From: a virus
Taxonomy: Duplodnaviria; Heunggongvirae; Uroviricota; Caudoviricetes
Direction: 5' to 3' (one strand)
DNA: 64,000 bases
IMG/VR virus record: IMGVR_UViG_3300044675_001501
Coordinates: 1-64,000 of that record
In this document: positions 1-33,500 of the stretch, in pieces
Layout: the number at the start of each line of letters is the position of its first letter
Position numbering within the stretch: position 1 is the first letter of the stretch
Position numbers and translations under genes: made by a program
The notes under the pieces: generated by a model
The model's database searches: none
What the model saw: the letters and a program-made list of their open reading frames with translations, nothing else
Told to the model about the DNA's origin: nothing

Positions 1-14
1 TTATTTCCCTGCAT
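1..14 (-). CDS. N-terminal fragment of a gene that continues beyond the window start (ATG at 14..12)
   Basis: ATG followed by an open frame running off the 5' end of the window on the minus strand. Too short to characterise. Confidence 0.2.
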
Positions 15-39
15 GTAAACATTAGTATAGAAATCCAAA

Positions 40-597
40 TTAAACTCCGTACATAAGCATCATAGCATCATAGGCGCAATCATGAATAGGATTGTGCTTG
101 ATTACATTGTGTCGTTTGAATGTTGGATGATCAACATCGCAGTAACCGTTCTTAGCTGTGGTAGATAAACAATCAACTGCTGTTCTGACATCACGCCAGT
201 TATTATACGGGAAAATAAGTTCTTCGTCAATCTTCTTACATAGCGAATCAATAATAACTTGATCGAAAGAACCTCGAGACCATACGGTATGATCACGACC
301 ATGCTTTGCGACATATTCTTTTAGAATGCGAATACCTTCTTGCGGTGTTAGATCTTGCGGAGTTGGGTCAAAAGAAGTAGCACGAATAGAAGGATGAATC
401 TTATCCCACCATTCTAATGTTTCTTTAGAGATTGATCTGTTATATTCTCTCGCTTGCAGTTTAGAATTAAACTTAACAAAACATGCATTGCTCAACATGG
501 TTTCATAATCGTCACCTTGTTGAACGAAGATTAAAGCAGCAGAAAGAACAACAGCAGTAGACTCAGCGTCTAGCGTCTCTATATCAAAAATGTACAT
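40..597 (-). CDS. dexA: DEDD-family 3'-5' exonuclease (DexA-like)
   Basis: N-terminal 'MYIFDIETLD' matches the exo I motif of DnaQ/DEDDh exonucleases, and the size is close to T4 DexA. The start is moved to the internal ATG at 597, which has a GGAG 5 nt upstream. The ORF-track start at 657 adds a hydrophobic leader and is probably not used. Confidence 0.6.
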   Translation of the reverse strand: MYIFDIETLDAESTAVVLSAALIFVQQGDDYETMLSNACFVKFNSKLQAREYNRSISKETLEWWDKIHPSIRATSFDPTPQDLTPQEGIRILKEYVAKHGRDHTVWSRGSFDQVIIDSLCKKIDEELIFPYNNWRDVRTAVDCLSTTAKNGYCDVDHPTFKRHNVIKHNPIHDCAYDAMMLMYGV

Positions 598-662
598 GAT
601 AACTCCAATGAGAAATGCCTCAAGTATTATTATACCTGAGGCATTAATAAAAAGCAAATGTA

Positions 663-995
663 TTATTGCACTTTTGCAGCACTTAGAATTTGAGCAGCTT
701 CTTCCTTTGTAAGAATTTCTAAACCACTACCAAAAAGTCTGCTGTATTCATTGATAAGTTTTTCAGCTGGCTCACACTCAGCAGCAATACTTGTCCAAAA
801 TACTTTGACTCTTCCATCTTTTGCAAAAGGCATATATGGTGCCATAACACCATCAGTCTTACCATCTGCTGTGCTCTTCAAGAAGATAATAGCAGGGTTG
901 ACTACTGAAAGATATTCAGGTGCTGTGCCTGCGGTATCATCTTCTTTTGCAATTAATACATCACCATTAATTAATCTAAATGTTCTTACGTTCAT
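663..995 (-). CDS. hypothetical protein (110 aa)
   Basis: Open frame whose internal ATG (995..993) overlaps the stop of the upstream ORF in an ATGA arrangement, suggesting translational coupling. No recognisable motifs. Confidence 0.4.
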   Translation of the reverse strand: MNVRTFRLINGDVLIAKEDDTAGTAPEYLSVVNPAIIFLKSTADGKTDGVMAPYMPFAKDGRVKVFWTSIAAECEPAEKLINEYSRLFGSGLEILTKEEAAQILSAAKVQ

Positions 996-1204
996 ATGTT
1001 CTCCTGTGCAATTAACCATTCGACCCATTCGCTCGCTTCTACATAATTAACGAACTGCTGGATCAATACCTTGTCAGCATCATAAACATGCTGAGCTACC
1101 ACCATGACAAACTTGTCATTGAATACGGATACCTTCAACAGCCAAGATGCTCTTCGCACAAGCTGATAAGATACTAGATGTTTGTAGATACGTGATTTCA
1201 TCAT
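992..1204 (-). CDS. hypothetical protein (70 aa)
   Basis: Open frame in an operon-like position. Its stop overlaps the next start (ATGA). Confidence 0.35.
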   Translation of the reverse strand: MMKSRIYKHLVSYQLVRRASWLLKVSVFNDKFVMVVAQHVYDADKVLIQQFVNYVEASEWVEWLIAQENI

Positions 1205-1228
1205 ACTTCTATTTAGTATGATGAAGTG

Positions 1229-1248
1229 GGGAGTTTCCTCCCCACCAG
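1229..1248. other. perfect hairpin gtggggag-tttc-ctccccac (8-bp stem) in the intergenic leader of ORF70
   Basis: Inverted repeat seen directly. A T-run follows it on the plus strand, but on the gene-bearing minus strand it is immediately followed by the RBS and ATG of the 70-aa ORF. Confidence 0.4.
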
Positions 1249-1323
1249 ATTTATTTTTGATTTGGATTTGTTGGAGTCTTTCCGTTTACCCAATCCCAAT
1301 CATCATCTGTCATAGGAAGCCAA

Positions 1324-1848
1324 TTACAACCTTTCTGATAAATCATCTTTTTCCTTTTCTGTTAAAAGTTGTTTATCAGTTTTCTTCGCTTCACCTTTTT
1401 CTGCAATATCAATTTTCTGTGGCTTCTTATGCTCAGGAATAATACGCTCAAGAGCAATCTTCAACATACCATTAATTAATTCTGCACCTTTGATCTCTAC
1501 TTGATCATTCAGCGCAAAGGTATGTGTAAAGTTACGAGTAGCGATTCCCTTATGCAACCACTCTAGTGCTGTGTTATCTTCATTTGCCTTACCTTTAACA
1601 ATTAGTTTGTCATCAGCAAATTCGATTTCTAGTTCCTGTTTTGTGAAACCAGCAACAGCCATCTCAACAACATACTTATTTTCTGCTGTCTTCTTGATAT
1701 TGAATGGTGGATAGTTTGGAACATTTTTGGTCAGATCGTCATGCATTTTTGCTAGACGATTGAATTGATCATCGAAACCGACAAAGAACTTGTCGAAATC
1801 TTTGAACTGAGGGTGTAACATTGTATCTGGTAGCCATTTGTGTACCAT
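1324..1848 (-). CDS. hsp20: small heat-shock protein (Hsp20 / alpha-crystallin family)
   Basis: 174 aa with an alpha-crystallin-domain-like core (…AVAGFTKQELEIEFADDKLIVKGK…IATRNFTHTFAL…). AAGGAG RBS 7 nt upstream. hsp20 is a hallmark of marine T4-like phages. Confidence 0.85.
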   Translation of the reverse strand: MVHKWLPDTMLHPQFKDFDKFFVGFDDQFNRLAKMHDDLTKNVPNYPPFNIKKTAENKYVVEMAVAGFTKQELEIEFADDKLIVKGKANEDNTALEWLHKGIATRNFTHTFALNDQVEIKGAELINGMLKIALERIIPEHKKPQKIDIAEKGEAKKTDKQLLTEKEKDDLSERL

Positions 1849-1870
1849 AATAGTCTCCTTATTAAGCGAG
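1846..1870 (-). promoter_or_regulatory. short hairpin sequestering the hsp20 Shine-Dalgarno (ROSE/fourU-like RNA-thermometer candidate)
   Basis: The minus-strand RNA 5'-CUCGCUU-AAU-AAGGAG-3' can pair CUC/GAG and CUU/AAG with a bulged G opposite the SD. The anti-SD contains UCGCU, which matches the ROSE U(U/C)GCU motif. Confidence 0.3.
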
Positions 1871-1919
1871 TTATAAAATTACTACCCCGAAGGCGTAGCA
1901 GTTTAAATAGTCGGCTTTT

Positions 1920-1961
1920 AACGTAGTTACCGACCAACTACGTTCCCATCCCGATTGGGAT
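1920..1961 (-). other. two adjacent perfect stem-loops in the regA–hsp20 leader (aacgtagtt/aactacgtt 9-bp stem; atccc-gatt-gggat 5-bp stem)
   Basis: Exact inverted repeats seen directly in the sequence. No flanking T-run, so they are not classical terminators. Confidence 0.5.
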
Positions 1962-1970
1962 CAGATTTAT

Positions 1971-2042
1971 TTAGCGATTTGCGATATACATTGTAATCTC
2001 AAATCCAAAACGCATATCAGTAGCTACTGGTTTTGTCCACAT
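1971..2042 (-). CDS. micro-ORF (23 aa, [23 protein letters not shown]) with a strong AAGGAG RBS
   Basis: ATG lies 7 nt downstream of AAGGAG in the noncoding tract where T4 carries gene 43. Coding status is uncertain. Confidence 0.2.
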
Positions 2043-2060
2043 AATTATCTCCTTGGTTAA

Positions 2061-2077
2061 TTGTCCGAACTGGACAA
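2061..2077 (-). other. perfect hairpin ttgtcc-gaact-ggacaa just downstream of regA
   Basis: 6-bp perfect inverted repeat with a 5-nt loop. Confidence 0.4.
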
Positions 2078-2140
2078 TAATACTTATCCCTACTGTGGCG
2101 ATAAGTCCCTAAGGATTTTCATTAAAAACTCATAAATTAT

Positions 2141-2557
2141 TTAGCGTTTTTTTCCGATATTATACTTAGGAACTAATTCCCATTCATCTTTTTCTTTATG
2201 CGTAACTACTTTAATCTGCGACAAAGATGCTTTCGGCTCTGACTTAGATGGTAGCATAATCTTTAACAAACCCCAATCTTGCAAAAGACCAGCAATAGTA
2301 TTGCGTCTCTCAACATCATTGGATGTAATGTTAGATTCTTTACCGTCTAGAGCGAACAGCTCTTTAAAGTGCACAATAAAGTACCTGCCCTGCTTATGTA
2401 AGATATGGCAAGACTGGTATAATTTTTTATCTTTACGGGAAGCGATACCAATACGAGTTAGAGTCTCTCTAACCTTCAGGAAATTGTCTGGTTCTGGTAG
2501 GGTCACTTCTAGCATGGACTCTGGAGTCCAATCGTAATAAACCATTTCAACACTCAT
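2141..2557 (-). CDS. regA: translational repressor RegA
   Basis: Clear similarity to T4 RegA along the whole length (…FLKVRETLTRIGIA…KLYQSCHILHKQGRYFIVHFKE…EWELVPKYNIG). Confidence 0.85.
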   Translation of the reverse strand: MSVEMVYYDWTPESMLEVTLPEPDNFLKVRETLTRIGIASRKDKKLYQSCHILHKQGRYFIVHFKELFALDGKESNITSNDVERRNTIAGLLQDWGLLKIMLPSKSEPKASLSQIKVVTHKEKDEWELVPKYNIGKKR

Positions 2558-2943
2558 GATTTTCCACCCTTATATAATTTTTCTTCTATTTCTTTCAGTT
2601 GATCATCCGTAAGTATGCTCATAGCAACTTTCGCCTTTTCATCAGAATACTTAAAATATTCTTTAACTAAGGAGAAGTGTTTACCTAATTTTTCCTTTTC
2701 GTTCCATTTGGAAAAACGCTTCTTCTTAACTACACTATTTAGTAAAAACGAAAATTGCCATTCTGGTGGAATCTGTGAGTACTGGTTTACTACATTAGCA
2801 TATGCTACAGTGTCTACAAAGTAAGACAAGCCCCTGTTAATGATAAAGGCGCTCTTCTTGTAGTCCTTGGAAGCCAAAGAATCCTTCTTTAGCAAGTCCT
2901 CCTTTGTGTAGGAAATAGCGTTAATAAAGTCAAATGGATTCAT
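2554..2943 (-). CDS. 62: clamp-loader small subunit gp62
   Basis: Position next to gp44. Motifs resemble T4 gp62 (…KKRFSKWNEKEK… versus T4 …KRYGKWAKL…). Its start overlaps the preceding stop. Confidence 0.65.
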   Translation of the reverse strand: MNPFDFINAISYTKEDLLKKDSLASKDYKKSAFIINRGLSYFVDTVAYANVVNQYSQIPPEWQFSFLLNSVVKKKRFSKWNEKEKLGKHFSLVKEYFKYSDEKAKVAMSILTDDQLKEIEEKLYKGGKS

Positions 2944-3266
2944 GATAAGTTCTCTAGGACTTCTTTTTCTACAATAAATTTAGTATTGGGATAACGCTTA
3001 ACCATGGCTTCCAGCAAAGAATCTCTGGTGTTACCCTGAGCGATAAACTCATCGGTGTCATAGTTATATGCGAAAAGGAATCCCTGCTCTTTTTCGAAGT
3101 ATATACGGACTATCTCCTGGTCATCCTGGTGCTCTTCCATCTGATTGAGCATTTTCCTGACTTCATTCTTTGCAGTCAGTTCTCGTAATGCCCAACCAAG
3201 TTTATAGCACATCCAACCATAGAGTAGGATAAGTAATAGATCTAAGACGTTCATTTGAATTTGCAA
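2940..3266 (-). CDS. small membrane-anchored protein (108 aa) inserted between gp44 and gp62
   Basis: N-terminal hydrophobic helix (VLDLLLILLYGWMCYKLGWAL) followed by a charged soluble part. No T4 counterpart at this position. Confidence 0.45.
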   Translation of the reverse strand: MQIQMNVLDLLLILLYGWMCYKLGWALRELTAKNEVRKMLNQMEEHQDDQEIVRIYFEKEQGFLFAYNYDTDEFIAQGNTRDSLLEAMVKRYPNTKFIVEKEVLENLS

Positions 3267-4192
3267 TTTACCATTAGTTCAGTCAACGCTGCCATCATAT
3301 TTATTTCCTGATCAGCTACGAAAGCAGACTTGTACTGATAGTCTGCTAGGGTTACCACTAGCTGAGGGATAGATGATGGATCCATAATCTCAATTGCTTT
3401 GTCATAAAGATTACGGAAAATATGGGCAGTTCCCATATCAGCATTCTTACCAACCCAACGACGAATGTCTGTATACTTCTTCGTCTTTAGTAAATCTACA
3501 AGTTCTTTAAATGATTCATCACTAACATTCAGAAGAATACCAGAATCAATCTTACCTGAAACTGAATAACGCTGAAGTTCATTCAGAGTTCTACGGAAGT
3601 CTGGGAAATGTTTTGTGACGAGTTCAGCTACAACCTTAGAGTCAAACTCTACCTGTTCAGAAGATAGAATGTCAACAATACGCTTATAGAAAGCAGCTGC
3701 GATCTTTGGCTTCTCGCCATTGTCGATTTTAAAATCAACATTAATGCAGCGAGACTGAAGAGCATCAAGAAGACGATGCTTAAAATTACAAGTAAAGATG
3801 AAGCGGCAATTGCCAGCAAACTCTTCAATAAACGCACGCAATGCAGGTTGTACTGAGTCGGCATTCATATAATCAGCCTCATCAATAATAACAACCTTCT
3901 TTGCTTCTGTCAAAGAAACAGTTGAAGCAAAAGATTTAATAACAGTTCGGAGAGTGTCGATAGAACGACCTTCGTCCGAACCGTTAATCATCAAATATTC
4001 TGCGCCAACTTCATCACATAGTGCTTTTGCTACAGTAGTTTTACCAACACCAGCTGTTCCGCTGAAAATAAAATTAGGAAGTTCACCACTAGCGATGAAC
4101 TCCTTAAAAGTTTTCTTCAGAGATTCTGGTAAAATACAATCATCAATTTTCTGCGGACGATACTTCTCAACCCACAAATAGTGTTCACTCAT
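3251..4192 (-). CDS. 44: clamp-loader large subunit gp44 (AAA+ ATPase)
   Basis: Walker A GTAGVGKTT, Walker B VVIIDEAD, and an SRC motif (LQSRCINV). Co-linear with T4 gp44. Confidence 0.9.
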   Translation of the reverse strand: MSEHYLWVEKYRPQKIDDCILPESLKKTFKEFIASGELPNFIFSGTAGVGKTTVAKALCDEVGAEYLMINGSDEGRSIDTLRTVIKSFASTVSLTEAKKVVIIDEADYMNADSVQPALRAFIEEFAGNCRFIFTCNFKHRLLDALQSRCINVDFKIDNGEKPKIAAAFYKRIVDILSSEQVEFDSKVVAELVTKHFPDFRRTLNELQRYSVSGKIDSGILLNVSDESFKELVDLLKTKKYTDIRRWVGKNADMGTAHIFRNLYDKAIEIMDPSSIPQLVVTLADYQYKSAFVADQEINMMAALTELMVNCKFK

Positions 4193-4209
4193 AATATATC
4201 CTCAATTGT

Positions 4210-4494
4210 TTACTTAGAATGTACTGCCTTTAAAGTGCGCTCAAAAATAAGTCGCATATTTTCGTCATAAACATCATCATCAAATTCATCTTGCGTCATA
4301 CATGGTTTAGTTTCAGCCTCAGTCATCCATTCTGGAGGGTTGCCGAAAAAACCAATTGGGGCAAGTGCCATACGGAATCTTATCATAGAGCCTGACATAC
4401 CTAGCTGAGTATCACCTGGAGCAGCATGCTCAGCGATCAGTTTGCCACGACGAACCAATTCCATAATCACTTCATCACGTTGTGTAGTAATCAT
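4210..4494 (-). CDS. hypothetical protein (94 aa) between gp45 and gp44
   Basis: Open frame in an operon position with no recognisable homology. T4 has no gene here. Confidence 0.4.
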   Translation of the reverse strand: MITTQRDEVIMELVRRGKLIAEHAAPGDTQLGMSGSMIRFRMALAPIGFFGNPPEWMTEAETKPCMTQDEFDDDVYDENMRLIFERTLKAVHSK

Positions 4495-4496
4495 AA

Positions 4497-5159
4497 TTAT
4501 TCAAATGTAGAGTCAGCTTCAACAGCAACGAAATAAACTAAATCTGAAGTAGAAGATTGGAAACGACTGATCTTCTTGTTAGAGATTGCGACAGAATAGT
4601 TTCCTGGGATCATCTTAAGATTATCTACCTTCAAGTTTACCTTGAACGATTTATCAGTGTCAGAAAGTGCAACTTCATAAGCATTAGCTGCTGCATTCTT
4701 TTTGTCAGCAACAACGATCTTCATTTTAGAACCATCACCAACTACGCTTACGTCAGCTGAGTGAAGAACAGAAGCAGTACGCTGAACCATAGCAAGAGTT
4801 GCTGCGGTTAAGTCAAAAGTAATATCTTCTGATGGCAGTTGAATCTGCTTTGCTGGAGGAATAGTCAAAGTGCCAGCATCAGCAGCATAGTAACGAATAG
4901 AGTTATTACCTTGCTTGATACGAACAGACTTCTCAGAGAACTCTAGATCGGGATCTTCAAACAAAGATAATGCGCCAAGGAATTCATTAAGATCATAGAT
5001 AGCAAACTCGCTATCGAAAGTCTCAGGAACTGTGATAGATGCCATCACGTTTTTCTGAGCAGAAATCGTTGCGAGTTTAGAACCTTCTTTGATCAAAAGG
5101 TTTCCATTAATGGATGCGAAATTCTTTAGAACTCCGACTGTTTCTTTAGATAACTTCAT
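4497..5159 (-). CDS. 45: sliding clamp gp45
   Basis: Strong similarity to T4 gp45 (MKLSKETVGVLKNFASING…AIYDLNEFLGALSL…VAVEADSTFE). The start is taken at the ATG matching the T4 N-terminus and has an AGGAG RBS. The ORF-track TTG start at 5174 adds 5 residues. Confidence 0.9.
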   Translation of the reverse strand: MKLSKETVGVLKNFASINGNLLIKEGSKLATISAQKNVMASITVPETFDSEFAIYDLNEFLGALSLFEDPDLEFSEKSVRIKQGNNSIRYYAADAGTLTIPPAKQIQLPSEDITFDLTAATLAMVQRTASVLHSADVSVVGDGSKMKIVVADKKNAAANAYEVALSDTDKSFKVNLKVDNLKMIPGNYSVAISNKKISRFQSSTSDLVYFVAVEADSTFE

Positions 5160-5198
5160 ATTTTCTCCTATCAATTAAACACATAACTATGTATATAC

Positions 5199-5227
5199 AT
5201 TATACCCCAGAAATGGGGTATAGTCAA
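5199..5227 (-). promoter_or_regulatory. sigma70-type early promoter for the gp45-gp44-gp62-regA operon (TTGACT-N17-TATAAT)
   Basis: Minus-strand TTGACTataccccatttctggggTATAAT. The spacer contains the palindrome cccca-uuuc-ugggg. Confidence 0.6.
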
Positions 5228-5228
5228 A

Positions 5229-6032
5229 TTATTTTTGCATCATCAAAGCATTGAAGTTAGCAGGAACAACAATGGTCTGCACTCGACCATTCTTAATACC
5301 CTCAGAGATATTCAACGCAGCTTGAGCTTGCATAAAAGCAATAGAACTGGCAGAGTTATTGGCAAGAGCAGCCATACGCTCAGCTTCCTTCTTAGCAGTT
5401 TGAACCTCTACTTCTTTCTGCTTGTATTCATTCTTAGCACGAACCAAAGCATTAGCAGATTCAACAACACTGTCAGCTGGGACTACGTTACGAATTAAGA
5501 CTTGGCTAATTGTAATTGAACCATCAAGTTTTTCTTCAGCAAGATTCTTTTGAATCTCTTCTTGAATCATACGCTCCATATTCTCACGATTGTCTGCCAT
5601 ATCAAGTGCTTCATATTTACGAGCAGCTTTATAGATGGCATTACGAGCATTCTGAACAACGTAGTTATACATTACGTAGGTGTCACCCTTGAACTCAGCG
5701 TGGAATGCTTTGTTCTTAGTTGAGTAGAGTTCTGCTACAGTTTGTGGATTGATGTTGTAAACAACAACAGCATCTAGATCTTTCATAGTGCTATTATCTT
5801 TTGCTACTGGAGTCATATCCTGAAGGACTACGTTAACATCTTTCACTGGGAATGTCAAAACATCACCAATCATAGTTTGGTTAAAAGATCCAGGCAGCAA
5901 CTCTCCTGGTTTAACCTGCTTATCAAAGCCAACTCGAACACCAACCTCGCCTGTCTCAATACGAGTGCAGCCAGTAGCCAGAGCAACAGTAGCAACCAGA
6001 GCAGAGATTTTCAACATTTGTTTCATGATCAT
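5229..6032 (-). CDS. SPFH/band-7 (prohibitin/HflK-like) lipoprotein
   Basis: Signal peptide with a lipobox (LATGC), then a PHB-like domain and a long Ala/Glu-rich coiled-coil tail (…EYKQKEVEVQTAKKEAERMAALAN…). Confidence 0.65.
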   Translation of the reverse strand: MIMKQMLKISALVATVALATGCTRIETGEVGVRVGFDKQVKPGELLPGSFNQTMIGDVLTFPVKDVNVVLQDMTPVAKDNSTMKDLDAVVVYNINPQTVAELYSTKNKAFHAEFKGDTYVMYNYVVQNARNAIYKAARKYEALDMADNRENMERMIQEEIQKNLAEEKLDGSITISQVLIRNVVPADSVVESANALVRAKNEYKQKEVEVQTAKKEAERMAALANNSASSIAFMQAQAALNISEGIKNGRVQTIVVPANFNALMMQK

Positions 6033-6038
6033 TTTCCT

Positions 6039-6215
6039 TTAAAATAAAACAACAATACCAACCATAACAATTACAACCAAAGCAGAAATACCAAGAGAGT
6101 ATGCTGTAATTTTAGCAAGACTCAATTTTTCTTTGTTAGTCATTTTTCTAAACATGTCTATGCCAGTAAAGAAAATAATAAACAAAGAGATGAAAGCGAG
6201 AACTATCTTAATCAT
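6039..6215 (-). CDS. 58-aa membrane micro-protein (MIKIVLAFISLFIIFFTGIDMFRKMTNKEKLSLAKITAYSLGISALVVIVMVGIVVLF)
   Basis: Below the 60-aa cutoff of the ORF track. Two predicted TM helices. AAGGAAG RBS. Its ATG overlaps the upstream stop (ATGA), and it ends 7 nt before the SPFH gene. Confidence 0.45.
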   Translation of the reverse strand: MIKIVLAFISLFIIFFTGIDMFRKMTNKEKLSLAKITAYSLGISALVVIVMVGIVVLF

Positions 6216-6550
6216 TTTTCTTCCTTAGAATATTTTACATCATGCTCATATAGAAAGTAAAGGCAGCACATTGCATGCGCCAAATGATGAATACCAGATT
6301 CAGGATCTAATTGTTCACCTTCTTTCCACGCCCATAGATGTCTTTGCATAGCATCAAAGTATCTACGCTTAGAATCGGGAACAAATTTCCAGTTGTCTGG
6401 TTCATATTTTTCTGCTCCGAATGTAAGGACTTTAACCATTTCTTTCAGAGCGAGTGGTGGGACTAGCCCATATTGAAGTTTGCCACCATCAAACTTTCTA
6501 CCGCCAGTGGTAGAATTCTGAGATTGTTCAATTTCTTTTTTAGTTGCCAT
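6212..6550 (-). CDS. hypothetical protein (112 aa), possibly a phage dATP/dGTP-pyrophosphohydrolase-like small domain
   Basis: Conserved-looking core (…GGKLQYGLVPPLALKEMVKVLTFGAEKYEPDNWKF…SGIHHLAHAMCCLYFL) recalled from small phage nucleotide-hydrolase-like proteins. The assignment is tentative. Confidence 0.4.
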   Translation of the reverse strand: MATKKEIEQSQNSTTGGRKFDGGKLQYGLVPPLALKEMVKVLTFGAEKYEPDNWKFVPDSKRRYFDAMQRHLWAWKEGEQLDPESGIHHLAHAMCCLYFLYEHDVKYSKEEK

Positions 6551-6573
6551 AGATCCTCCAAGTGAGAATGACT

Positions 6574-6596
6574 ATGGGCACTCTAGGAATGCCCAT
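6574..6596 (-). other. intercistronic hairpin atgggca-N9-tgcccat
   Basis: Perfect 7-bp inverted repeat between ORF86 and ORF112. No U-run follows it. Confidence 0.35.
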
Positions 6597-6607
6597 AAGC
6601 AGGTCAC

Positions 6608-6868
6608 TTACGCAAAGAGACCAAGGCGATACGCAGCTGCTACCATCGCACGAGTAGGCTTACCAATGCGATACTTTACAACTGGCTCACCCTTACTATC
6701 GCTTTTAGAGTTTGCGTAAACGCAATAACCCTGCTCGCGAAGATTGCGAATAGCAGATGCGGGATGGGCGATACCGAACTGACCACGGATTTGTGAAGCA
6801 GTTAGTTCTTTACCATTTTGTAGAACCTGCAAAAGTTTAGATTGACGACTCATAGATTTAATCCTCAT
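6608..6868 (-). CDS. small DNA-binding protein (putative helix-turn-helix)
   Basis: 86 aa, basic, with an HTH-like segment (LTASQIRGQFGIAHPASAIRNLREQGY). Confidence 0.4.
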   Translation of the reverse strand: MRIKSMSRQSKLLQVLQNGKELTASQIRGQFGIAHPASAIRNLREQGYCVYANSKSDSKGEPVVKYRIGKPTRAMVAAAYRLGLFA

Positions 6869-6889
6869 TCAAGTCAATACCATCAAACG

Positions 6890-6929
6890 AAAAAAAGTCA
6901 AGAGTGGTGATGGCATTCCCACTCTTGAC
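6890..6929 (-). terminator. rho-independent terminator (11-bp perfect stem gtcaagagtgg/ccactcttgac followed by U7 on the minus strand)
   Basis: Stem and 11-nt loop seen directly. The A7 run on the plus strand corresponds to a U-run downstream on the minus-strand transcript. Confidence 0.7.
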
Positions 6930-6946
6930 TGTCAAACCAAGTCAGC

Positions 6947-7324
6947 TTAGACTTGGATACCGTTAGCACGAAGTTCTGCGGTAAACTCATCTTCATCGAT
7001 AGACACTGGCTCAGCGTCCTCGATAATTTTCTCGAGCTTCTTCTTAGCAGCAGCAGTTTGCTTAGCTACTGCATCTTTGACTGAACCTGTAGACTTCGGT
7101 CCAGGAAACGCAAAAACTCCACGCGAAATTGTGTTGTTAGCAGACAACCAAAGCGGATAACCAATTTTTGGAGCACCGTCGGTGCGCTTCTCATGAAGAT
7201 CCCAAAAAAGTTTTTGAACTTCTTTGGTCGTAATAGTCTCAGCCGAAGCAAGTTTCGGATTGAGAGAAATAAAAGCATCGATACAACGCTTTTGACCCTT
7301 AGACAAATCAGCATATTTCAGCAT
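6947..7324 (-). CDS. hypothetical protein (125 aa) sharing a motif with the N-terminus of the AAA+ ATPase
   Basis: 'KIGYPLWLSANNTISRGVFAFPGP' resembles 'KFPSWLMTNKVGRGLYAIPGG' of the ORF at 7451..8626. It has its own promoter and terminator. Confidence 0.5.
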   Translation of the reverse strand: MLKYADLSKGQKRCIDAFISLNPKLASAETITTKEVQKLFWDLHEKRTDGAPKIGYPLWLSANNTISRGVFAFPGPKSTGSVKDAVAKQTAAAKKKLEKIIEDAEPVSIDEDEFTAELRANGIQV

Positions 7325-7379
7325 AGTTTAACTCCTGTGTGTGTTAATAAAAAAGAAACTACTCAACTTTACAACTATA

Positions 7380-7408
7380 ATTATACCCCGACTGGGCATA
7401 AATGTCAA
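7380..7408 (-). promoter_or_regulatory. sigma70 consensus early promoter (TTGACA-N17-TATAAT) for ORF125
   Basis: Minus-strand gcTTGACAtttatgcccagtcggggTATAAT. Both hexamers are perfect. Confidence 0.65.
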
Positions 7409-7441
7409 GCATAACCCTACAGTTTGCAAGGTTATTTTCAG

Positions 7442-7464
7442 CCTTTAAAATCAAGGACTTACAG
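7442..7464 (-). repeat. copy 1 of a 23-nt element (minus strand CTGTAAGTCCTTGATTTTAAAGG) at the 3' end of the CobS-like gene
   Basis: Identical 23-mer also present at 11004..11026. This copy spans the TGA stop of the ATPase gene. Confidence 0.6.
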
Positions 7465-8626
7465 CCTCCCCTTCGGCTACAGGGGTTTCCACAGCGGCAG
7501 CTGAGGACTCTTCAACGTAATCGCCTGTCGAAACCTTTTCGAACAAGTCAACAAAGGCAAGGCGAGTAGCGTCATCAAATCGATTCGTGCAAAGTTCAAT
7601 TGCTTTCTTCTGATTCTTGAAGATCGCATAAGCACGAACGATGTGAATTAAACGGCGAGTAGTAATTGTTTCGTCAACACCACCAGCATCAAAAGTACGG
7701 CGAATAGCATCAGCCCACTTGACCATGTTCTCAGCAAACTTCTCATCAAAGCAACCGTAAGAAGTCATGAGATTAGTAACGATCTTCATCTCAGTACGCT
7801 GCTCAGGGTATTCCTGGTTGAAGGTAACAGCGAATCGCTCAAGAAATGCTTCGTTAAGAACATTGGTACCAATGTAACGACCATCTTCGCTACCCTTACC
7901 TTTTGTGTTTGCGGTAGCAAAAATATTGAAACCACGAGCAGGATAGATAAGTTCGTTTTTCAGTTTGAAGTAGAATGGCTTACCTTCAAGAATTGGCTGC
8001 AAGCACATCAGAGTATTTGAGTTACCAGCATCAATCTCATCAAGAAGCAGAGGAATACCAAGACGCATAGCAATAACGATTGGACCTTCAACGATTTCGA
8101 CATTACCATCGATCAAAGTCTTAGTGCCAATCAACTGATCTTCATCAGTCATGCTGTTAAAGTTAATACGAATCAGCGGACGCTTACGCTTTGCGCAAAT
8201 CTGCTCAATGCTGGTAGACTTACCGTTACCAGTTGGACCGCTGATGTAAGAAGGATAAAAGATCTCAGACTTGATAATCTCATCAAGATCTTTATAGTTA
8301 CCGAAGGGGACATAGTTAGGATCAACCTTCGGAATCAAAGATGAAGTGTCGCTATAATTCACAATAACATTCTCATTTTTTTCGGGAGCCAAAGCTGTAT
8401 TGCCAACAACTGGTGCTGTAATATTACCACCAGGAATAGCATACAAACCACGACCAACCTTGTTAGTCATAAGCCAAGAAGGAAACTTGTCAGTTCCGAA
8501 TGAAGTCATAACCTCAATCAATTGAGAGCGAGAAACGACACCCTTAGAAGAAACATCAGGGAACATCTCAAAAAGTTTGGTTTCAAACTCATCACGATAA
8601 GCAGCAGTAGTCATCAAAATCTCCAT
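7451..8626 (-). CDS. cobS: AAA+ ATPase, CobS/MoxR-like
   Basis: Walker A GPTGNGKST and Walker B LLLDEID. The size and context (paired with a vWA protein) resemble the cobS/cobT-like pairs of T4-like phages. Confidence 0.75.
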   Translation of the reverse strand: MEILMTTAAYRDEFETKLFEMFPDVSSKGVVSRSQLIEVMTSFGTDKFPSWLMTNKVGRGLYAIPGGNITAPVVGNTALAPEKNENVIVNYSDTSSLIPKVDPNYVPFGNYKDLDEIIKSEIFYPSYISGPTGNGKSTSIEQICAKRKRPLIRINFNSMTDEDQLIGTKTLIDGNVEIVEGPIVIAMRLGIPLLLDEIDAGNSNTLMCLQPILEGKPFYFKLKNELIYPARGFNIFATANTKGKGSEDGRYIGTNVLNEAFLERFAVTFNQEYPEQRTEMKIVTNLMTSYGCFDEKFAENMVKWADAIRRTFDAGGVDETITTRRLIHIVRAYAIFKNQKKAIELCTNRFDDATRLAFVDLFEKVSTGDYVEESSAAAVETPVAEGEAVSP

Positions 8627-8647
8627 AATAAAATTTACTACAATTAA

Positions 8648-8676
8648 ATTATACTAGCATTGGCAATTAATGTCAA
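8648..8676 (-). promoter_or_regulatory. sigma70 consensus early promoter (TTGACA-N17-TATAAT) for the AAA+ ATPase gene
   Basis: Minus-strand gcTTGACAttaattgccaatgctagTATAAT. Its extended -35 flank resembles the promoter at 7380..7408. Confidence 0.65.
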
Positions 8677-8690
8677 GCAAAATGCAAACT

Positions 8691-30557: not shown

Positions 30558-33500
30558 TTATGCTTGTGATTCAGTCCAAGACAGACGGCAAGAAGCAGCG
30601 AACGTAGCAGCAGCAGTAACGTCAGAAGCTAGACCAATGTATCTCATACGTAGAGTCAATACGTCTGGACCGTCAGGGAATACACCGTTACCGCCCATAA
30701 TAGAGTTACCAAGAGTTGCAATTTCACGTAGGTCAATAGAGGTCAATGCTTGAGCTCTGTTGTTTGGTGTTGTCAACTGGTTTCCAGGTGGAACACGGAA
30801 CGAGAAGATAACAGAACCTTGGTCAATTGTGTCAGAAATGTTATGGTAAACAACCTGACTCAATGAAGGAGCAGTAACACGCTTCCAATCCAAGTTATCC
30901 AAGTCAGCATTCAGAACCAGAGACAATTCAATCTCGTGGGTTGAAAGAACGTCAAGAGCTTTCAAGTTCAATTGCATGCGGTTAATAATTTCTCTTTCTC
31001 CAAGTAATCCTGGAATACCATTATCAACAGAAGGCGATAGACGTAAAGACAATAGAGGAATTGTTTTAGTCAAATCAACAGCCTGTGAAACTGTATATGT
31101 AGTATTTGTCGCTTGGATAGAAGAAGGTCTTGCGTTAACAACCAATAAGTTTTTAAGAATATTAGATGTTGGAGAAACTCTGACCTGACGCAAATATGGT
31201 TGACTACCGATAGATGAGTTGGTTGGGTTTGCAGTTAATGTACCAGCAACAATACCATTTCCTGATATACCAGAATTAGCATTAATAGAAAAATATGTAT
31301 CTGCATGAGTAGGAATTTCAATAGCAAAACCAATTTCACCAATCAGCTTACCGCCATTGTTATAAGCATACCATTTTCCTAGTTCGAATGCGTTACCAGC
31401 TGTAACTCCACCAGCTGCGGCAAGACTTGGTGCTACTGCGGTACAAACAAAACTTGTTCCAACGTTGTTGTTTGCTGCTCCATATGAAGTCCAAGTTGTT
31501 GATCCTGCCGTATTAATTGTATAAGAACGACCGATAACTAAATTGTTTGCTGTAAAGGTTTGAGATACTGATGCTTGTGTTCCACCAGTAACGCTAATTG
31601 TGCCAGAAGTACCAGTAGAAGTACGAATCTGGTTAGAAGTAGCGGAGAACAAGTATGCTTTATCGTCATCGAAACCACCGTCCATAATAACGGAAGTACC
31701 CCAGTGTGCAAGTTTAGGTATAAAGGAAGGAGAAACGCCAGTATCAACCTCATAGCGAGCTGGCAGGTTACCCGAACGTAGGTACGCTTCTGTTTCTAAG
31801 TTGTTGTGGACAATTTGGTGTACGTATCTAACAACACCATCAGTAGTTTTAAATCCAAAACGAACTTTACCAGCGCCATACCAAGAATAGTCCATGTAAG
31901 CCATCTGAATCTTACGAATATCTAAAGTATATCCTGTTGGACCACTTCCATTACATACATCTAAATTCCAGCTTGATTGTGGAACTCTAATCTCATTAGT
32001 CTTACTTACTACAACATTAGTTGATGTAGAACCTCTATATGATGGTTGAACATAGAACGTATTGTTGTTTGGAATTTCAATAACTTTATATGATTGTCCT
32101 TTAATTACAACATAATCTCCAGAGACTAATTCTGTTACGTATTGTGTTCCTGTTCCTACAATTTGATTGCTGTTAAAAATAACACTTGCAGTTCCACCTA
32201 GCTGAACTGTAGAATTTCTTCTGCATACGCTAAGAGTCGAACCATTATATTCAAAGAACATACCATTTTGATCATCAAATAAACCACAACGAACTGTTGC
32301 GTTATTCCAAGAATTTACGTAGAATTGTGGGCGACCGCTGGAAACGTTGCTATATGGGAAATTCAAACTAATTCTAAATGAATAATCATCTATAATGTCA
32401 TAAATTGTGAACGATCCATTATAGGTAGATCCAGTATCCCCAGAAATAGTAATGTCTAGACCAGCAGTACATCTGTGAGGAACACGAGTAGTTACTGTTG
32501 CATAGTAGTTACTATTACCTGTAACTGAGTTAATAGGTACTGAAGGGCTGAAGTTAATAGCAAACGAAACTTGAATGCCTTTACCTGACTGATAACGGAA
32601 ATACTTACGAGTCTGACGAACAACACGTGCGTTCGGAGAATCTGTTGAGATTAATTCAACACCACCGTCATATGGTCTATGTAACGCTGATGAGTCAGCA
32701 CGCAACAATAGACTAGAAGTAACATCATAGGTGTTTGTTGCTGGGAATCCGTGACAGTTTATTGCGTTTACAGTAGAAGCTGTTGTTGTTGCTGGGATAG
32801 TTGCAGTCGCAGCAGCATTAGTTTGCATAGTAACAACAATAGAAGTGCTATTGCTACCAGCATTAGTTTTGACAATTAATGGAATATTGTCAATCTGAGT
32901 TGTATTACCAGTTCCTGTTAAAACAATGACAGAGCCAGCAGGGAATGGGCAAGGCATTGGGAAAGCGACAGTAATATCTGGGCTGGCGCTTGTTAGTGAT
33001 ATAGAAGTTACTGGCAATTTATATTGTTCATTAATTGGGATAGTATCAACTAAGTTTAACACAGTGCGTGAGTTGACTGTGCTAATTAGAGAAACACCAG
33101 TATTTCCAGGAACAATTAAAGAAACAGTGTGAACACCTGAACCACCAGAAGCAACGATCAAGTTAGTCCCATTTACTGCATCATTATAGGTAGGAGCTAA
33201 GTTGAAGTCGGCAGCTGACGCCCATCTTACATAGTAGATACCACCGTTAATTAGACCAGTTGGTGCAGCAACAGTAGAGTTCCAGCGTACAGACATGCCT
33301 GTCAACATACCGTGCGCAGCACTAGTAAATGTTGAAGAAACGAAAGTTGTTGTTTTTGCAGTGTAAACTGCTGGGTAATTCCAATAGAAGTTATCGCCAG
33401 ATTTAAACGCAGTTGAGAAGTTTGTGTTATTACCAACTACCTTAGTTGTTCCTGCTGCTAGTGCAATAGTACCAGCACCAACAATAGAACCAACAACAGA

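What the first reader, a model, noticed from the sequence alone, without database searches (positions are those of the whole stretch)
1862..2140. Structured ~290-nt noncoding tract with three perfect hairpins and an RBS-equipped 23-codon micro-ORF where gene 43 sits in T4
In T4 the operon continues 45-44-62-regA-43. Here regA is followed by a noncoding region instead of DNA polymerase. The region contains, on the mRNA strand, ttgtcc-N5-ggacaa, a 23-codon ORF with a perfect AAGGAG-N7-ATG, and atccc-N4-gggat. It also holds a 9-bp stem (aacguaguu/aacuacguu), a GC-rich 4+2-bp stem, and the SD hairpin of hsp20. This is either a small structured RNA or a leader, or the remnant of the polymerase locus, which must lie elsewhere in the genome.
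Basis: seen in the sequence. Interest (0 to 1): 0.5.

Follow-up and report, generated by a model that had tools for sequence, protein, structure and literature searches.

The report
Phage pqqA gene plus hsp20 leader
The "noncoding" gap after regA in this T4-like phage holds a 23-codon gene for PqqA, the peptide bacteria convert into the cofactor PQQ. It is followed by a conserved folded RNA leader, a pseudoknot plus a heat-shock-type "RNA thermometer" hairpin, in front of the phage's small heat-shock gene.

Summary
The hairpins and the micro-ORF are real and sit where reported (tract 1849-2140, minus strand). The tract is two functional modules, not a polymerase remnant.

1. The micro-ORF (2042-1971) is pqqA. 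It scores above the curated cut-offs of Pfam PF08042 and TIGR02107 and has the Glu-X-X-X-Tyr core. In 20 phage copies it varies mostly at third codon positions. No pqqB-E homologue was found in the window. Intact, unannotated pqqA copies occur in cultured phages of methylotrophic Methylophilales (Melnitz, Venkman, MEP301/401/402, P19250A). Viral PqqA was reported once before, in Lake Baikal viromes.

2. H3 plus the SD hairpin align full-length, below threshold, to Rfam ROSE_3. The same two-hairpin module precedes hsp20 in cultured cyanophages and pelagiphage HTVC008M.

Gene 43 starts at window position 38, about 1.8 kb downstream.

Proposed functions are inferred, not shown: supply of the consumed PQQ precursor, and temperature-tuned Hsp20 translation.

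The parts
2141..2557 (-). regA (translational repressor). This is the upstream flanking gene; its stop is at 2143-2141.
   Evidence: Pfam PF01818, 160.6 bits.
2109..2125 (-). Conserved TTAATGA...CCTTAG motif upstream of pqqA. Its role is unknown. In relatives, TAATGAtttt is the 3' half of a terminator-like inverted repeat that follows a 57-61-aa ORF absent from the window.
   Evidence: The TTAG and TAAGTA columns are invariant in the 12-sequence alignment A2.
2082..2106 (-). Hairpin P-a: ACTTATC (2106-2100) paired with GATAAGT (2088-2082). Its 3' arm overlaps the conserved ATAAGTA box (2087-2081). That box is one base off this phage's late-promoter core ATAAATA.
   Evidence: P-a appears in the MFE and centroid folds. 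There is one compensatory change in close relatives (L154: CTTATT/AATAAG). The ATAAGTA/TAAGTA box is conserved in 11 T4-like relatives and in Melnitz. ATAAATA occurs 10 times on the minus strand and never on the plus strand.
2060..2078 (-). Hairpin P-b (ATTGTCC-AGTTC-GGACAAT). It lies in the pqqA 5' UTR, 2-4 nt after the box and 4-11 nt before the SD.
   Evidence: It occupies the same position in 11 relatives with different stems (GTCC/GGAC, GTGC/GCAC, GTAG/CTAC, CTACC/GGTAG). Mean stem length is 5.6 bp against 3.8 bp in shuffles.
2049..2054 (-). Shine-Dalgarno AAGGAG of pqqA, with a 6-nt spacer to the ATG.
1971..2042 (-). pqqA: 23 codons plus stop, [23 protein letters not shown]. Glu15 and Tyr19 form the E-X-X-X-Y core.
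   Evidence: PF08042 scores 37.9 bits (cut-off 21.1). TIGR02107 equivalog scores 38.5 bits (cut-off 20). Across 18 unique copies, variable columns by codon position are 10/7/21, with CGT/AGA Arg codon switches.
1968..1974 (-). CTAAATA, a near-consensus (6 of 7) late-promoter core. It overlaps the pqqA stop codon and lies 6 nt upstream of H1.
   Evidence: 36 of 66 unique related leaders have an exact ATAAATA 9-14 nt before the GGGAT of H1. The window's own late-promoter cores are listed.
1948..1961 (-). H1 hairpin ATCCC-AATC-GGGAT of the hsp20 leader, followed by the conserved GGGAAC (1947-1942).
   Evidence: Conserved in relatives found independently through regA (L024, L034, L056, L060, L005, L006, L012, L016, L017). 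There is little covariation.
1910..1944 (-). H-type pseudoknot. Stem P2 is AACGTAGTT (1944-1936) with AACTACGTT (1928-1920). The loop strand GTCGG (1934-1930) pairs with CCGAC (1914-1910) across an A-rich linker (1919-1915).
   Evidence: Each loop's best match to its own linker averages 5.46 bp, against 3.87 +/- 0.12 bp for swapped partners (n=59, 28 distinct strand sequences). P2 is 96.5% paired, and 3 of its 6 pairs show changes on both sides.
1881..1899 (-). H3 hairpin CTAC(G)CC-UUCG-GGGTAG with bulged G1894. A U-rich stretch follows (1880-1871). It corresponds to hairpin I of short ROSE-like elements and also looks like a weak terminator.
   Evidence: 95.8% paired, and 6 of 8 pairs have compensatory changes. 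It aligns to ROSE_3 hairpin I, including the bulged G. It is present directly after a late-promoter-like box in S-RIM2, S-SSM5, P-SSM2, HTVC008M and C48C1.
1855..1870 (-). ROSE-like SD hairpin. The anti-SD CUCGCU (1870-1865; a U(U/C)GCU motif with bulged G1867) pairs with the hsp20 SD AGGAG (1859-1855).
   Evidence: 39 of 39 hsp20 genes with a free upstream region in regA-derived loci carry U(U/C)GC(U/C/A) 2-16 nt before the SD. This is the only such motif in the 64-kb window. Predicted hairpin dG runs from -6.4 kcal/mol at 5 C to -2.2 at 37 C. Full-length sub-threshold ROSE_3 hits fall on this position.
1324..1848 (-). hsp20 (IbpA-like small heat-shock protein), the gene served by the leader.
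   Evidence: PF00011, 63.3 bits. NCBIfam IbpA, 122 bits, which is below that equivalog's cut-off.
1..38 (-). Start of gene 43 (DNA polymerase): TTG start, MDFYTNVYMQGN..., running off the window edge.
   Evidence: Matches the gp43 N-termini of relatives (L005: MDFYTHVYCYGNNLL). Gene order in L003 and L005 is exonuclease then gp43.

Best explanation
The 292-nt regA-hsp20 spacer contains two independent, conserved modules.

Module 1: a stand-alone pqqA cassette.
- It consists of a conserved upstream box (ATAAGTA), a 5'-UTR hairpin, a strong SD and a 23-codon ORF.
- The ORF encodes the precursor peptide of pyrroloquinoline quinone (PQQ).
- PqqA is the one component of the PQQ pathway that is consumed, one peptide per cofactor molecule. 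PqqB-E are catalysts.
- Proposed mechanism (inferred): the phage keeps supplying this precursor to the host's own PqqB-E after host gene expression declines. That would sustain PQQ-dependent methanol or alcohol dehydrogenases, and so energy supply, in a methylotrophic (Methylophilaceae-type) host.

Module 2: the structured 5' leader of the hsp20 transcription unit.
- In order: a near-consensus late-promoter core, hairpin H1, an H-type pseudoknot, stable hairpin H3 with a bulged G and a U-rich tail, and a short hairpin in which CUCGCU masks the hsp20 Shine-Dalgarno around a bulged G.
- The last two hairpins have the architecture of short ROSE-like RNA thermometers of proteobacterial ibpA.
- Proposed mechanism (inferred): the SD hairpin melts as temperature rises, tuning Hsp20 translation.
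- H1, the pseudoknot and H3 would stabilise or fold the leader. They would also form the structured 3' end, possibly a leaky terminator, of the pqqA message.

What is shown and what is not:
- Shown: family membership of the peptide, a coding-type substitution pattern, conservation and covariation of the RNA helices, and synteny.
- Inferred: translation, PQQ boosting, thermosensing, and promoter and terminator activity.
For: pqqA identity and selection:
- Pfam and TIGRFAM scores exceed the curated cut-offs.
- The E-X-X-X-Y motif that defines the PQQ precursor is present (PMC2294125).
- The ORF is conserved at 70-96% amino-acid identity in at least 14 regA-linked IMG/VR contigs, and it is intact in close relatives L107 and L154 and in the identical contig L151.
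- Changes fall mostly at third codon positions, with 994 synonymous and 615 non-synonymous pairwise codon differences.

pqqA distribution:
- tblastn against GenBank phages gives 12 hits. Nine records are cultured phages of Methylophilales or Methylophilaceae, of very different genome sizes and types. All these copies are intact, orphan and unannotated.
- This PqqA subtype was found in 120 or more bacterial loci, almost all Methylophilaceae or Methylophaga.
- PqqA variants from relatives are identical to NCBI PqqA entries of Ca. Methylopumilus and Methylotenera.
- No PqqB, C, D or E homologue is in the window or in any viral locus (Pfam scans).
- Viral PqqA was proposed as an auxiliary metabolic gene (AMG) in Lake Baikal viruses (PMC7678222).
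- PqqA is expressed about 20-fold above PqqC/E in bacteria (PMC2294125).

hsp20 leader:
- 86 IMG/VR loci carry it.
- On alignment A1, 91.8% of cells are paired against 74% in shuffles (0 of 500 shuffles as high). The covariation score is 0.515 against 0.193. Slid controls are 33-45% paired.
- The pseudoknot partner-swap test gives 5.46 against 3.87 +/- 0.12 bp.
- Full-length ROSE_3 alignments fall at the same place: 16.1 bits in the window, 22-29 bits in relatives, 26.8 bits in phage C48C1.
- The U(U/C)GCU-type anti-SD is present in 39 of 39 free hsp20 upstream regions.
- The same late-box, hairpin, ACUCGCUU and SD module occurs in cultured cyanophages S-RIM2, S-SSM5 and P-SSM2 and in pelagiphage HTVC008M.
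- Predicted pairing of the SD falls from about 0.8 at 5 C to about 0.5 at 37 C.
- The defining ROSE features are taken from PMC3669281.
Against: General:
- There are no expression, translation or temperature-response data.
- The host is unknown.
- Only 64 kb of the genome is visible, so pqqB-E or a methanol dehydrogenase could lie elsewhere.

pqqA:
- The window's PqqA has E-I-T-M-Y. All 130 bacterial copies retrieved have E-V-T-M-Y.

Leader:
- ROSE_3 scores are well below the gathering score of 43.
- The SD hairpin is only 5-6 bp and invariant, so covariation cannot test it.
- Its predicted melting is gradual.
- The 86-locus leader set was retrieved with fixed anchors (GGGATGGGAAC and CTCGCTTAA), which biases apparent conservation of those segments.
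- The sequences are related, so shuffle controls overstate significance.
- Column-wise support for the pseudoknot is weaker (74% paired) because MAFFT misaligns the loop.

Promoter and terminator roles:
- These rest on consensus resemblance only.
- The consensus scan found no sigma-70-type promoter in the tract.
Confidence: 0.75

Rival explanations
1. The leader hairpins are only transcript-end and stability elements. H3 plus its U-rich tail terminates regA/pqqA transcripts. H1 and the pseudoknot protect RNA ends. The CUCGCU...AGGAG pairing has no temperature-sensing role.
For: H3 is followed by AAUUUUAUAA. In relatives L016, L037, L039, L040 and L041, pqqA is followed instead by a canonical GC-hairpin plus U-run terminator. 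A 5'-terminal hairpin role was discussed for ROSE hairpin I (PMC3669281). The SD hairpin is short and predicted to be only partly closed.
Against: In cultured cyanophages and HTVC008M, H3 sits immediately after a late-promoter-like box with no upstream gene to terminate. The anti-SD motif is present in 39 of 39 free hsp20 upstream regions and only there in the window. Full-length ROSE_3 alignments recur at the same place.
Confidence: 0.25
2. The H1-pseudoknot domain is a sensor. It would be a riboswitch-like aptamer, or an operator for a phage protein as in the T4 gene 32 leader pseudoknot. It would add a second input to the ROSE-like switch or control termination at H3.
For: The layout is that of an aptamer followed by a terminator-like hairpin and then the SD. 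The pseudoknot shows strong covariation, with conserved unpaired GGGAAC, GUAA and A-rich segments. The domain is absent from cyanophage versions of the leader, so it is an added module.
Against: There is no similarity to any Rfam family, even at E<=10. The helix sequences and sizes vary widely, and the upstream domain is replaced by quite different hairpin sets in other relatives. That fits a generic structural role better than a ligand pocket.
Confidence: 0.15
3. The phage PqqA does not boost PQQ. It might be a decoy that titrates PqqD/PqqE, a precursor for a different product, or a recently acquired passenger gene.
For: It is an orphan with no pqqB-E nearby. The window's E-I-T-M-Y variant was not seen in bacterial copies. 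pqqA is present in only about 14 of 80 regA-linked relatives.
Against: The substitution pattern is coding-type, and it is retained in several unrelated phage lineages of one host group. Leader and core residues are conserved as in functional PqqA. Orphan pqqA copies are also common in host genomes: 96 of 120 have no pqqB-E within the 8-kb locus held.
Confidence: 0.1
4. The tract is a non-coding small RNA or a decayed remnant of the polymerase locus, and the micro-ORF is a chance ORF.
For: The region folds better than shuffles on both strands.
Against: The ORF exceeds curated PqqA thresholds and evolves as a coding sequence. gp43 is intact in relatives and starts at window position 38. There is no similarity to polymerase sequence in the tract.
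Confidence: 0.02

Closest known systems
Bacterial PqqA (PF08042 / TIGR02107), especially the Methylophilaceae and Methylophaga types
   Same: The length is 23 aa. It shares the MWTKP... leader and the conserved Glu-X-X-X-Tyr core. It has a strong SD and a stable structure downstream of the gene.
   Different: It is encoded by a T4-like phage and is an orphan with no pqqB-E. The upstream box and hairpin are phage-specific: ATAAGTA occurs in only 1 of 130 bacterial upstream regions. The core is E-I-T-M-Y instead of E-V-T-M-Y.
Viral PqqA reported in Lake Baikal virus population VP_266 (Coutinho et al. 2020, PMC7678222)
   Same: A virus-encoded PqqA, interpreted as an auxiliary metabolic gene for methylotroph hosts.
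   Different: That report was a metagenomic annotation alongside a viral methanol dehydrogenase. Here no methanol dehydrogenase was found among the window ORFs scanned, and pqqA sits in the replication-gene cluster of a T4-like phage. Its presence in cultured Methylophilales phages is unannotated in the records and absent from the papers on those phages that the library holds.
Short two-hairpin ROSE-like RNA thermometers of Pseudomonas ibpA (Krajewski et al. 2013; the similar Rfam model is ROSE_3, RF02523)
   Same: It is the 5' UTR of an IbpA-like small heat-shock gene. A GC-rich hairpin I with a bulged G before CC is followed by a short spacer. A 3' hairpin then has a U(U/C)GCU motif masking the SD around a bulged G, and the AUG is unpaired.
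   Different: Scores are 16-29 bits against a gathering score of 43. The SD hairpin is shorter. The element is phage-borne and usually sits behind a T4-type late promoter rather than a sigma-32 promoter. In the window's clade it is preceded by an extra H1 plus pseudoknot domain.
T4 gene 32 mRNA leader pseudoknot; small H-type pseudoknot aptamers (preQ1-I, SAM-II) - resemblance recalled from general knowledge
   Same: An H-type pseudoknot with an A-rich linker, located in a 5' leader of a T4-like phage gene.
   Different: There is no sequence or model similarity (no Rfam hit). No ligand or protein partner is known. The downstream context is different.

Membership tests
PqqA (PQQ precursor peptide) | Matches the curated family models above their trusted cut-offs | tested here: met
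   PF08042 scores 37.9 bits against 21.1. TIGR02107 (equivalog) scores 38.5 bits against 20.
PqqA (PQQ precursor peptide) | A short peptide (about 20-40 aa) with the conserved Glu-X-X-X-Tyr from which PQQ is built | tested here: met
   The peptide is 23 aa, with E15-I-T-M-Y19. Glu and Tyr are invariant in all 20 phage copies. The motif definition comes from PMC2294125.
PqqA (PQQ precursor peptide) | Encoded next to pqqB, C, D and E | tested here: not met
   No PqqB/C/D/E homologue is in the 64-kb window or the viral loci (Pfam scans). This is typical rather than strictly defining: 96 of 120 host pqqA copies retrieved also lack pqqB-E within the 8-kb locus held.
PqqA (PQQ precursor peptide) | Bound by PqqD and cross-linked by PqqE, yielding PQQ | not testable with these tools
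   Needs biochemistry or complementation.
ROSE-like RNA thermometer (Rfam ROSE_3, RF02523) | Lies in the 5' UTR of a small heat-shock gene | tested here: met
   It is directly upstream of hsp20 (PF00011; IbpA-like). In some relatives it precedes the first gene of an hsp20 operon.
ROSE-like RNA thermometer (Rfam ROSE_3, RF02523) | A U(U/C)GCU motif imperfectly pairs with the SD in the 3'-proximal hairpin | tested here: met
   CUCGCU pairs with AGGAG around bulged G1867. The motif is present in 39 of 39 free hsp20 upstream regions. The definition comes from PMC3669281.
ROSE-like RNA thermometer (Rfam ROSE_3, RF02523) | Two to four hairpins, with a stable 5' hairpin | tested here: met
   H3 is 95.8% paired, with compensatory changes in 6 of 8 pairs. 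It aligns to ROSE_3 hairpin I.
ROSE-like RNA thermometer (Rfam ROSE_3, RF02523) | Reaches the Rfam gathering score | tested here: not met
   Scores are 16.1 bits in the window and 22-29 bits in relatives, against 43. It is therefore filed as 'works like, probably related', not as a member.
ROSE-like RNA thermometer (Rfam ROSE_3, RF02523) | Temperature-dependent melting and translation | not testable with these tools
   Only a thermodynamic prediction is available.
Known pseudoknot riboswitch or other Rfam families | Covariance-model match | tested here: not met
   No hit for the H1-pseudoknot domain at E<=10 in the window, and none at gathering score in 15 relatives.
T4-type late promoter (TATAAATA) | Consensus box a few nt upstream of the transcript start | tested here: inconclusive
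   The window has CTAAATA (6 of 7) before H1 and ATAAGTA (6 of 7) before pqqA. 36 of 66 related leaders have an exact ATAAATA. Promoter activity was not tested.
Intrinsic terminator | GC-rich hairpin followed by a U-run | tested here: inconclusive
   The consensus scan calls no minus-strand terminator in the tract. H3 is followed by an interrupted U-run, AAUUUUAUAA.

The most novel reading that the evidence does not exclude
The H1-pseudoknot domain may be a new regulatory RNA module, either a ligand aptamer or an operator for a phage protein. It would be grafted onto an ancestral ROSE-like thermometer that is common to hsp20 of T4-like cyanophages and pelagiphages. The hsp20 operon, and the 3' end of the pqqA message, would then receive dual-input control during late infection.
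Probability: 0.15. Interest if true: 0.8.

Novelty: new variant of a known kind. Interest (0 to 1): 0.55.

Why it matters
Three things follow if this reading is right.

1. pqqA as an overlooked phage metabolic gene
- A 23-codon gene that gene callers skip turns out to be a recurrent metabolic gene of phages infecting methylotrophs.
- No gene is called in this gap in six public contigs that carry the identical hsp20. pqqA is also not annotated in the GenBank records of Melnitz, Venkman, MEP301/401/402 and P19250A.
- It could serve as a simple host-prediction marker for viromes.
- It suggests a testable principle: phages resupply the one stoichiometrically consumed component of a cofactor pathway, much as cyanophages resupply fast-turnover D1 protein (an analogy from general knowledge).

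2. A possible phage RNA thermometer
- The hsp20 gene of T4-like cyanophages and pelagiphages appears to carry a ROSE-like SD-masking leader.
- I found no description of this in the paper library.
- If functional, it would be a phage-encoded RNA thermometer.
- It could be tested directly in cultured systems: S-RIM2, S-SSM5, P-SSM2 and HTVC008M.

3. A new structured RNA domain
- The leader in the window's clade has a well-supported pseudoknot domain that is absent from Rfam.

Tried and rejected
- Near-identity DNA search against GenBank phages found nothing. A distant search found only regA homology.
- Rfam gave no family at gathering score, in the window or in 15 relatives.
- The sigma-70 promoter and terminator consensus scan found nothing useful in the tract on the coding strand.
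- The search for homologous proteins refuses 23-aa queries. I used tblastn against phages, an exact-sequence cluster look-up and a degenerate DNA pattern scan of genomes instead.
- The first two heuristic parsers for the pseudoknot mis-assigned helices or failed on the bulged H3.
- RNAalifold on the pqqA upstream region returned no consensus structure, because MAFFT misaligns the short hairpin. The hairpin was scored per sequence instead.
- I considered that CCUUAG upstream of pqqA acts as an anti-SD, as in the MFE. I rejected this as a general explanation: in most relatives the invariant TTAG is not complementary to the SD context.
- I considered that the TTAATGA and ATAAGTA motifs were co-transferred from the host pqqA promoter. 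I rejected this because they occur in only 4 and 1 of 130 bacterial upstream regions.
- The two 'Acinetobacter phage MD-2021a' hits are bacterial-type contigs with ppk and a full pqqABCDE operon. They were excluded as phage evidence.
- Paper PMC4861456 is not held.
- The remaining window ORFs (44.4-63.6 kb and the two giant ORFs) were not scanned with Pfam. They were covered only by tblastn with PqqB-E.
Full report
CONTEXT
All genes in window 1-5200 are on the minus strand. From high to low coordinates they are:
- gp45 (4497-5174)
- gp44 (3251-4192)
- an ORF of 108 aa
- gp62 (2554-2943)
- regA (2141-2557)
- a 292-nt gap (1849-2140)
- an IbpA-like hsp20 (1324-1848)
- three small ORFs
- an Rv2179c-like 3'-5' exonuclease (40-657)

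The window has no near-identical GenBank phage. Its regA is about 70% identical in DNA to pelagiphage HTVC008M, T4-like cyanophages and the OM43 phage Melnitz.

OBSERVATION
Three corrections apply:
- The SD-ATG spacer of the micro-ORF is 6 nt, not 7.
- The 'GC-rich 4+2 stem' is a six-pair stem, CTAC(G)CC/GGGTAG, with a bulged G and a UUCG loop.
- The tract is 1849-2140.

The region folds better than all 100 dinucleotide shuffles (z = -2.89).

WHERE GENE 43 IS
A scan of IMG/VR with RegA returned 80 related loci at 70-89% amino-acid identity. In these the usual order is regA-(small genes)-hsp20-small ORFs-exonuclease-gp43. In the window, the 12 codons left of the exonuclease read (TTG)MDFYTNVYMQGN. 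This matches the gp43 N-termini of relatives. The polymerase gene therefore starts at window position 38. The regA-gp43 interval is a variable accessory slot, not a decayed polymerase locus.

THE MICRO-ORF IS pqqA
[23 protein letters not shown] scores 37.9 bits on Pfam PqqA (cut-off 21.1). It scores 38.5 bits on the TIGR02107 equivalog (cut-off 20). It has the Glu-X-X-X-Tyr motif from which PQQ is made (PMC2294125).

The ORF is present at 70-96% identity in at least 14 of the regA-linked contigs. It is intact in the identical contig L151 and in close relatives L107 and L154.

Across 18 unique nucleotide versions, the variable columns by codon position are 10, 7 and 21 of 23. Arg11 alternates between CGT and AGA codons. 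Most copies have stops in the other two sense frames. This is a coding-type pattern of change.

tblastn with Acinetobacter PqqB, C, D and E found nothing in the window or in any viral locus. Pfam scans of 30 further window ORFs found only replication, repair and structural families.

DISTRIBUTION OF pqqA
tblastn of the peptide against 50,697 GenBank phage records gave 12 hits:
- four Melnitz isolates
- Venkman
- MEP301, MEP401 and MEP402
- P19250A
- a Manatee Spring podovirus
- two mislabelled bacterial contigs that carry a full pqqABCDE operon

Melnitz, Venkman and the MEP phages infect OM43-type Methylophilales, and P19250A infects a Methylophilaceae isolate.

In every phage record the ORF is intact, has an SD, is an orphan and is not annotated. 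In Melnitz an opposite-strand 'hypothetical protein' is annotated over it. Gene callers also left the regA-hsp20 gap empty in six public contigs that carry the identical hsp20.

A degenerate pattern for this PqqA subtype hit 120 or more loci in reference genomes. Almost all are Methylophilaceae (Methylotenera, Methylophilus, Methylobacillus, Ca. Methylopumilus) or Methylophaga. Two PqqA variants from relatives are identical to NCBI PqqA entries of Ca. Methylopumilus and Methylotenera. The pattern was built from this subtype, so it shows where the subtype lives, not where PqqA lives in general.

Viral PqqA has been reported once, in Lake Baikal viruses predicted to infect Methylophilaceae (PMC7678222). 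The held papers on Melnitz, MEP301, MEP401/402 and Venkman do not mention a phage pqqA.

pqqA FLANKS
Upstream, 11 T4-like relatives share an invariant TTAG and a TAAGTA box, usually ATAAGTA. This is one base off the late-promoter core ATAAATA. That core occurs 10 times on the minus strand of the window and never on the plus strand, and nine of the ten lie in intergenic regions 33-108 nt before a gene.

After the box come 2-4 nt, a 5-7-bp hairpin with differing stem sequences, and then 4-11 nt to the SD. Melnitz shares blocks TTAATGA..ATCCTTAG..TCGCC..ATAAGTAT with the window. These motifs are nearly absent upstream of bacterial pqqA.

Downstream, pqqA is followed either by a canonical terminator (L016, L037, L039-L041) or by the structured hsp20 leader. 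Promoter and terminator roles are inferred only.

THE hsp20 LEADER
The 3' part of the tract is not specific to pqqA. It precedes hsp20, or the first gene of an hsp20 operon, with or without pqqA. A pattern scan found 86 IMG/VR loci with the same type of leader.

Anatomy in the window:
- H1: 1961-1948
- GGGAAC: 1947-1942
- P2: 1944-1936 with 1928-1920
- pseudoknot strand GTCGG (1934-1930) with CCGAC (1914-1910), across AAAAG
- H3: 1899-1881, with bulged G1894
- U-rich stretch: 1880-1871
- CUCGCU (1870-1865) with SD AGGAG (1859-1855), around bulged G1867
- hsp20 ATG: 1848

On a 24-sequence alignment, 91.8% of cells are paired, against 74% in shuffles (0 of 500 shuffles as high). The covariation score is 0.515 against 0.193, and slid controls are 33-45% paired. 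Three of 6 P2 pairs and 6 of 8 H3 pairs change on both sides.

The pseudoknot was tested by matching each P2 loop to its own downstream linker or to other sequences' linkers. Own partners average 5.46 bp and swapped partners 3.87 +/- 0.12 bp (maximum 4.31 in 2000 permutations). There are 28 distinct strand sequences, for example GTCGG:CCGAC, GGAGGT:ACCTTC, TGAGGGGA:TCCCCTCA and GCCAGTGA:TCACTGGT.

An exact ATAAATA lies 9-14 nt before the GGGAT of H1 in 36 of 66 unique leaders. In others the leader starts right at the regA or pqqA stop codon. The window has CTAAATA overlapping the pqqA stop.

ROSE-LIKE MODULE
H3 plus the SD hairpin align over the whole Rfam ROSE_3 model, including its bulged G before CC and its ACUcGCu...AGgAG hairpin. 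The scores are below the gathering score of 43:
- window: 16.1 bits
- L104: 29.3 bits
- L110: 22.7 bits
- L154: 22.1 bits
- phage C48C1: 26.8 bits

The defining ROSE feature is a U(U/C)GCU motif imperfectly masking the SD in the 3' hairpin of a small heat-shock gene leader (PMC3669281). This feature is present.

In the regA-derived set, which was not selected for the motif, 39 of 39 hsp20 genes with a free upstream region have it 2-16 nt before the SD. It occurs once in the 64-kb window.

Cultured cyanophages S-RIM2, S-SSM5 and P-SSM2, pelagiphage HTVC008M and phage C48C1 show a late-promoter-like box, a GCC-UUCG-GGG-type hairpin, ACUCGCUU or UUUGCU, and then the SD. They lack H1 and the pseudoknot. 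The H1-pseudoknot domain is therefore an added module in the window's clade.

ViennaRNA predicts the SD hairpin at -6.4 kcal/mol at 5 C and -2.2 at 37 C. Predicted SD pairing probability falls from about 0.8 to about 0.5. I found no paper in the library describing an RNA thermometer for phage hsp20.

MECHANISM (INFERRED)
- PqqA is the substrate of the pathway and is consumed one peptide per PQQ. In bacteria it is made in about 20-fold excess over PqqC/E (PMC2294125). A phage that shuts down host expression could keep PQQ synthesis going by providing only this peptide to persisting host PqqB-E. That would sustain PQQ-dependent methanol dehydrogenase. The gene's restriction to phages of methylotrophs fits this.
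- The leader probably gives temperature-graded translation of Hsp20, often from late transcripts. This may hold structural proteins in a folding-competent state at higher temperature.
- H1, the pseudoknot and H3 would protect or fold the RNA. In the window they also form the structured 3' end of the pqqA message.

LIMITS
- There are no expression data, the host is unknown, and only part of the genome is visible.
- ROSE_3 scores are below threshold, and the SD hairpin is invariant and short.
- The 86-locus set is anchored on two fixed motifs.
- The sequences are related, which inflates shuffle-based support.
- The window's E-I-T-M-Y core was not seen in 130 bacterial copies.

VERDICT
pqqA is a new member of a known family, and viral pqqA has been reported once before. 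The hsp20 leader is a new, phage-borne variant of ROSE-like elements, with an added pseudoknot domain that is not in Rfam.

Noticed in passing
L082 (Melnitz-1 MZ577095.1 74882-74956, + strand); L083-L087: Intact pqqA ORFs are unannotated in cultured Methylophilales phages: Melnitz, Venkman, MEP301, MEP402 and P19250A (MEP401 matched in the same search but was not fetched). The same holds for a Manatee Spring podovirus. In Melnitz an opposite-strand hypothetical protein (QZI94433.1) is annotated over it, which is probably a mis-call.
   Followed up: yes
L300 (S-RIM2), L301 (S-SSM5), L302 (P-SSM2), L303 (C48C1), L001 (HTVC008M), each about 70 nt upstream of hsp20: Cultured T4-like cyanophages and a pelagiphage carry the same module before hsp20: a late-promoter-like box, a GCC-UUCG-GGG-type hairpin, ACUCGCUU or UUUGCU, and then the SD. 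This suggests a ROSE-like leader across the phage family, which could be tested in culture.
   Followed up: partly
L088 (CAKLQF020000010.1) and CAKLQH020000055.1: Records named 'Acinetobacter phage MD-2021a' carry polyphosphate kinase and a complete pqqABCDE operon. They look like bacterial chromosome contigs rather than phage.
   Followed up: partly
window 1251-1346 (-): A 31-aa ORF (MIYQKGCNWLPMTDDDWDWVNGKTPTNPNQK) overlaps the 3' end of hsp20. It is conserved at 59-93% amino-acid identity in many relatives and has no family match. It is probably another real micro-gene.
   Followed up: partly
Relatives L007, L009, L018, L024, L027, L029 and others, between regA and pqqA: A conserved 57-61-aa ORF (MIKLELTVDECNMILRVLGKHPFEEV...) is followed by a CATTAG-N6-CTAATG-ATTTT terminator-like repeat. 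Both are absent from the window, which keeps only the TAATGA half of the repeat.
   Followed up: partly
L174-L293 (Methylophilaceae and Methylophaga genome loci): 96 of 120 bacterial pqqA copies of this subtype have no pqqB-E within the 8-kb locus held, and several contigs carry two copies. Orphan or extra pqqA genes therefore seem common in the presumed hosts.
   Followed up: partly
window 30558-39899 (-) and 45419-55813 (-): Two giant ORFs of 3113 and 3464 aa lie within the structural module. They were not examined.
   Followed up: no
window 1226-1245: A perfect GC-rich palindromic hairpin (GTGGGGAG-TTTC-CTCCCCAC) lies between the 31-aa ORF and the 70-aa ORF. The scan calls it a terminator only on the plus strand, although all genes here are on the minus strand.
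   Followed up: no
window 5229-10943 (-): Accessory genes upstream of gp45 include an SPFH/Band-7 protein, a dATP/dGTP diphosphohydrolase-like protein, a winged-helix protein, a CbbQ/CobS-like AAA+ ATPase and a 750-aa ORF with no Pfam match.
   Followed up: no
L119, L158, L102, L139, L035 (gene directly after the leader): In some relatives the leader precedes a small Cys-rich protein that looks rubredoxin-like from its sequence (MSDSYDTYVCGVCGHEH...). In others it precedes a protein starting MFYANMAID... Both lie upstream of hsp20. This suggests a leader-controlled operon rather than a single gene.
   Followed up: no
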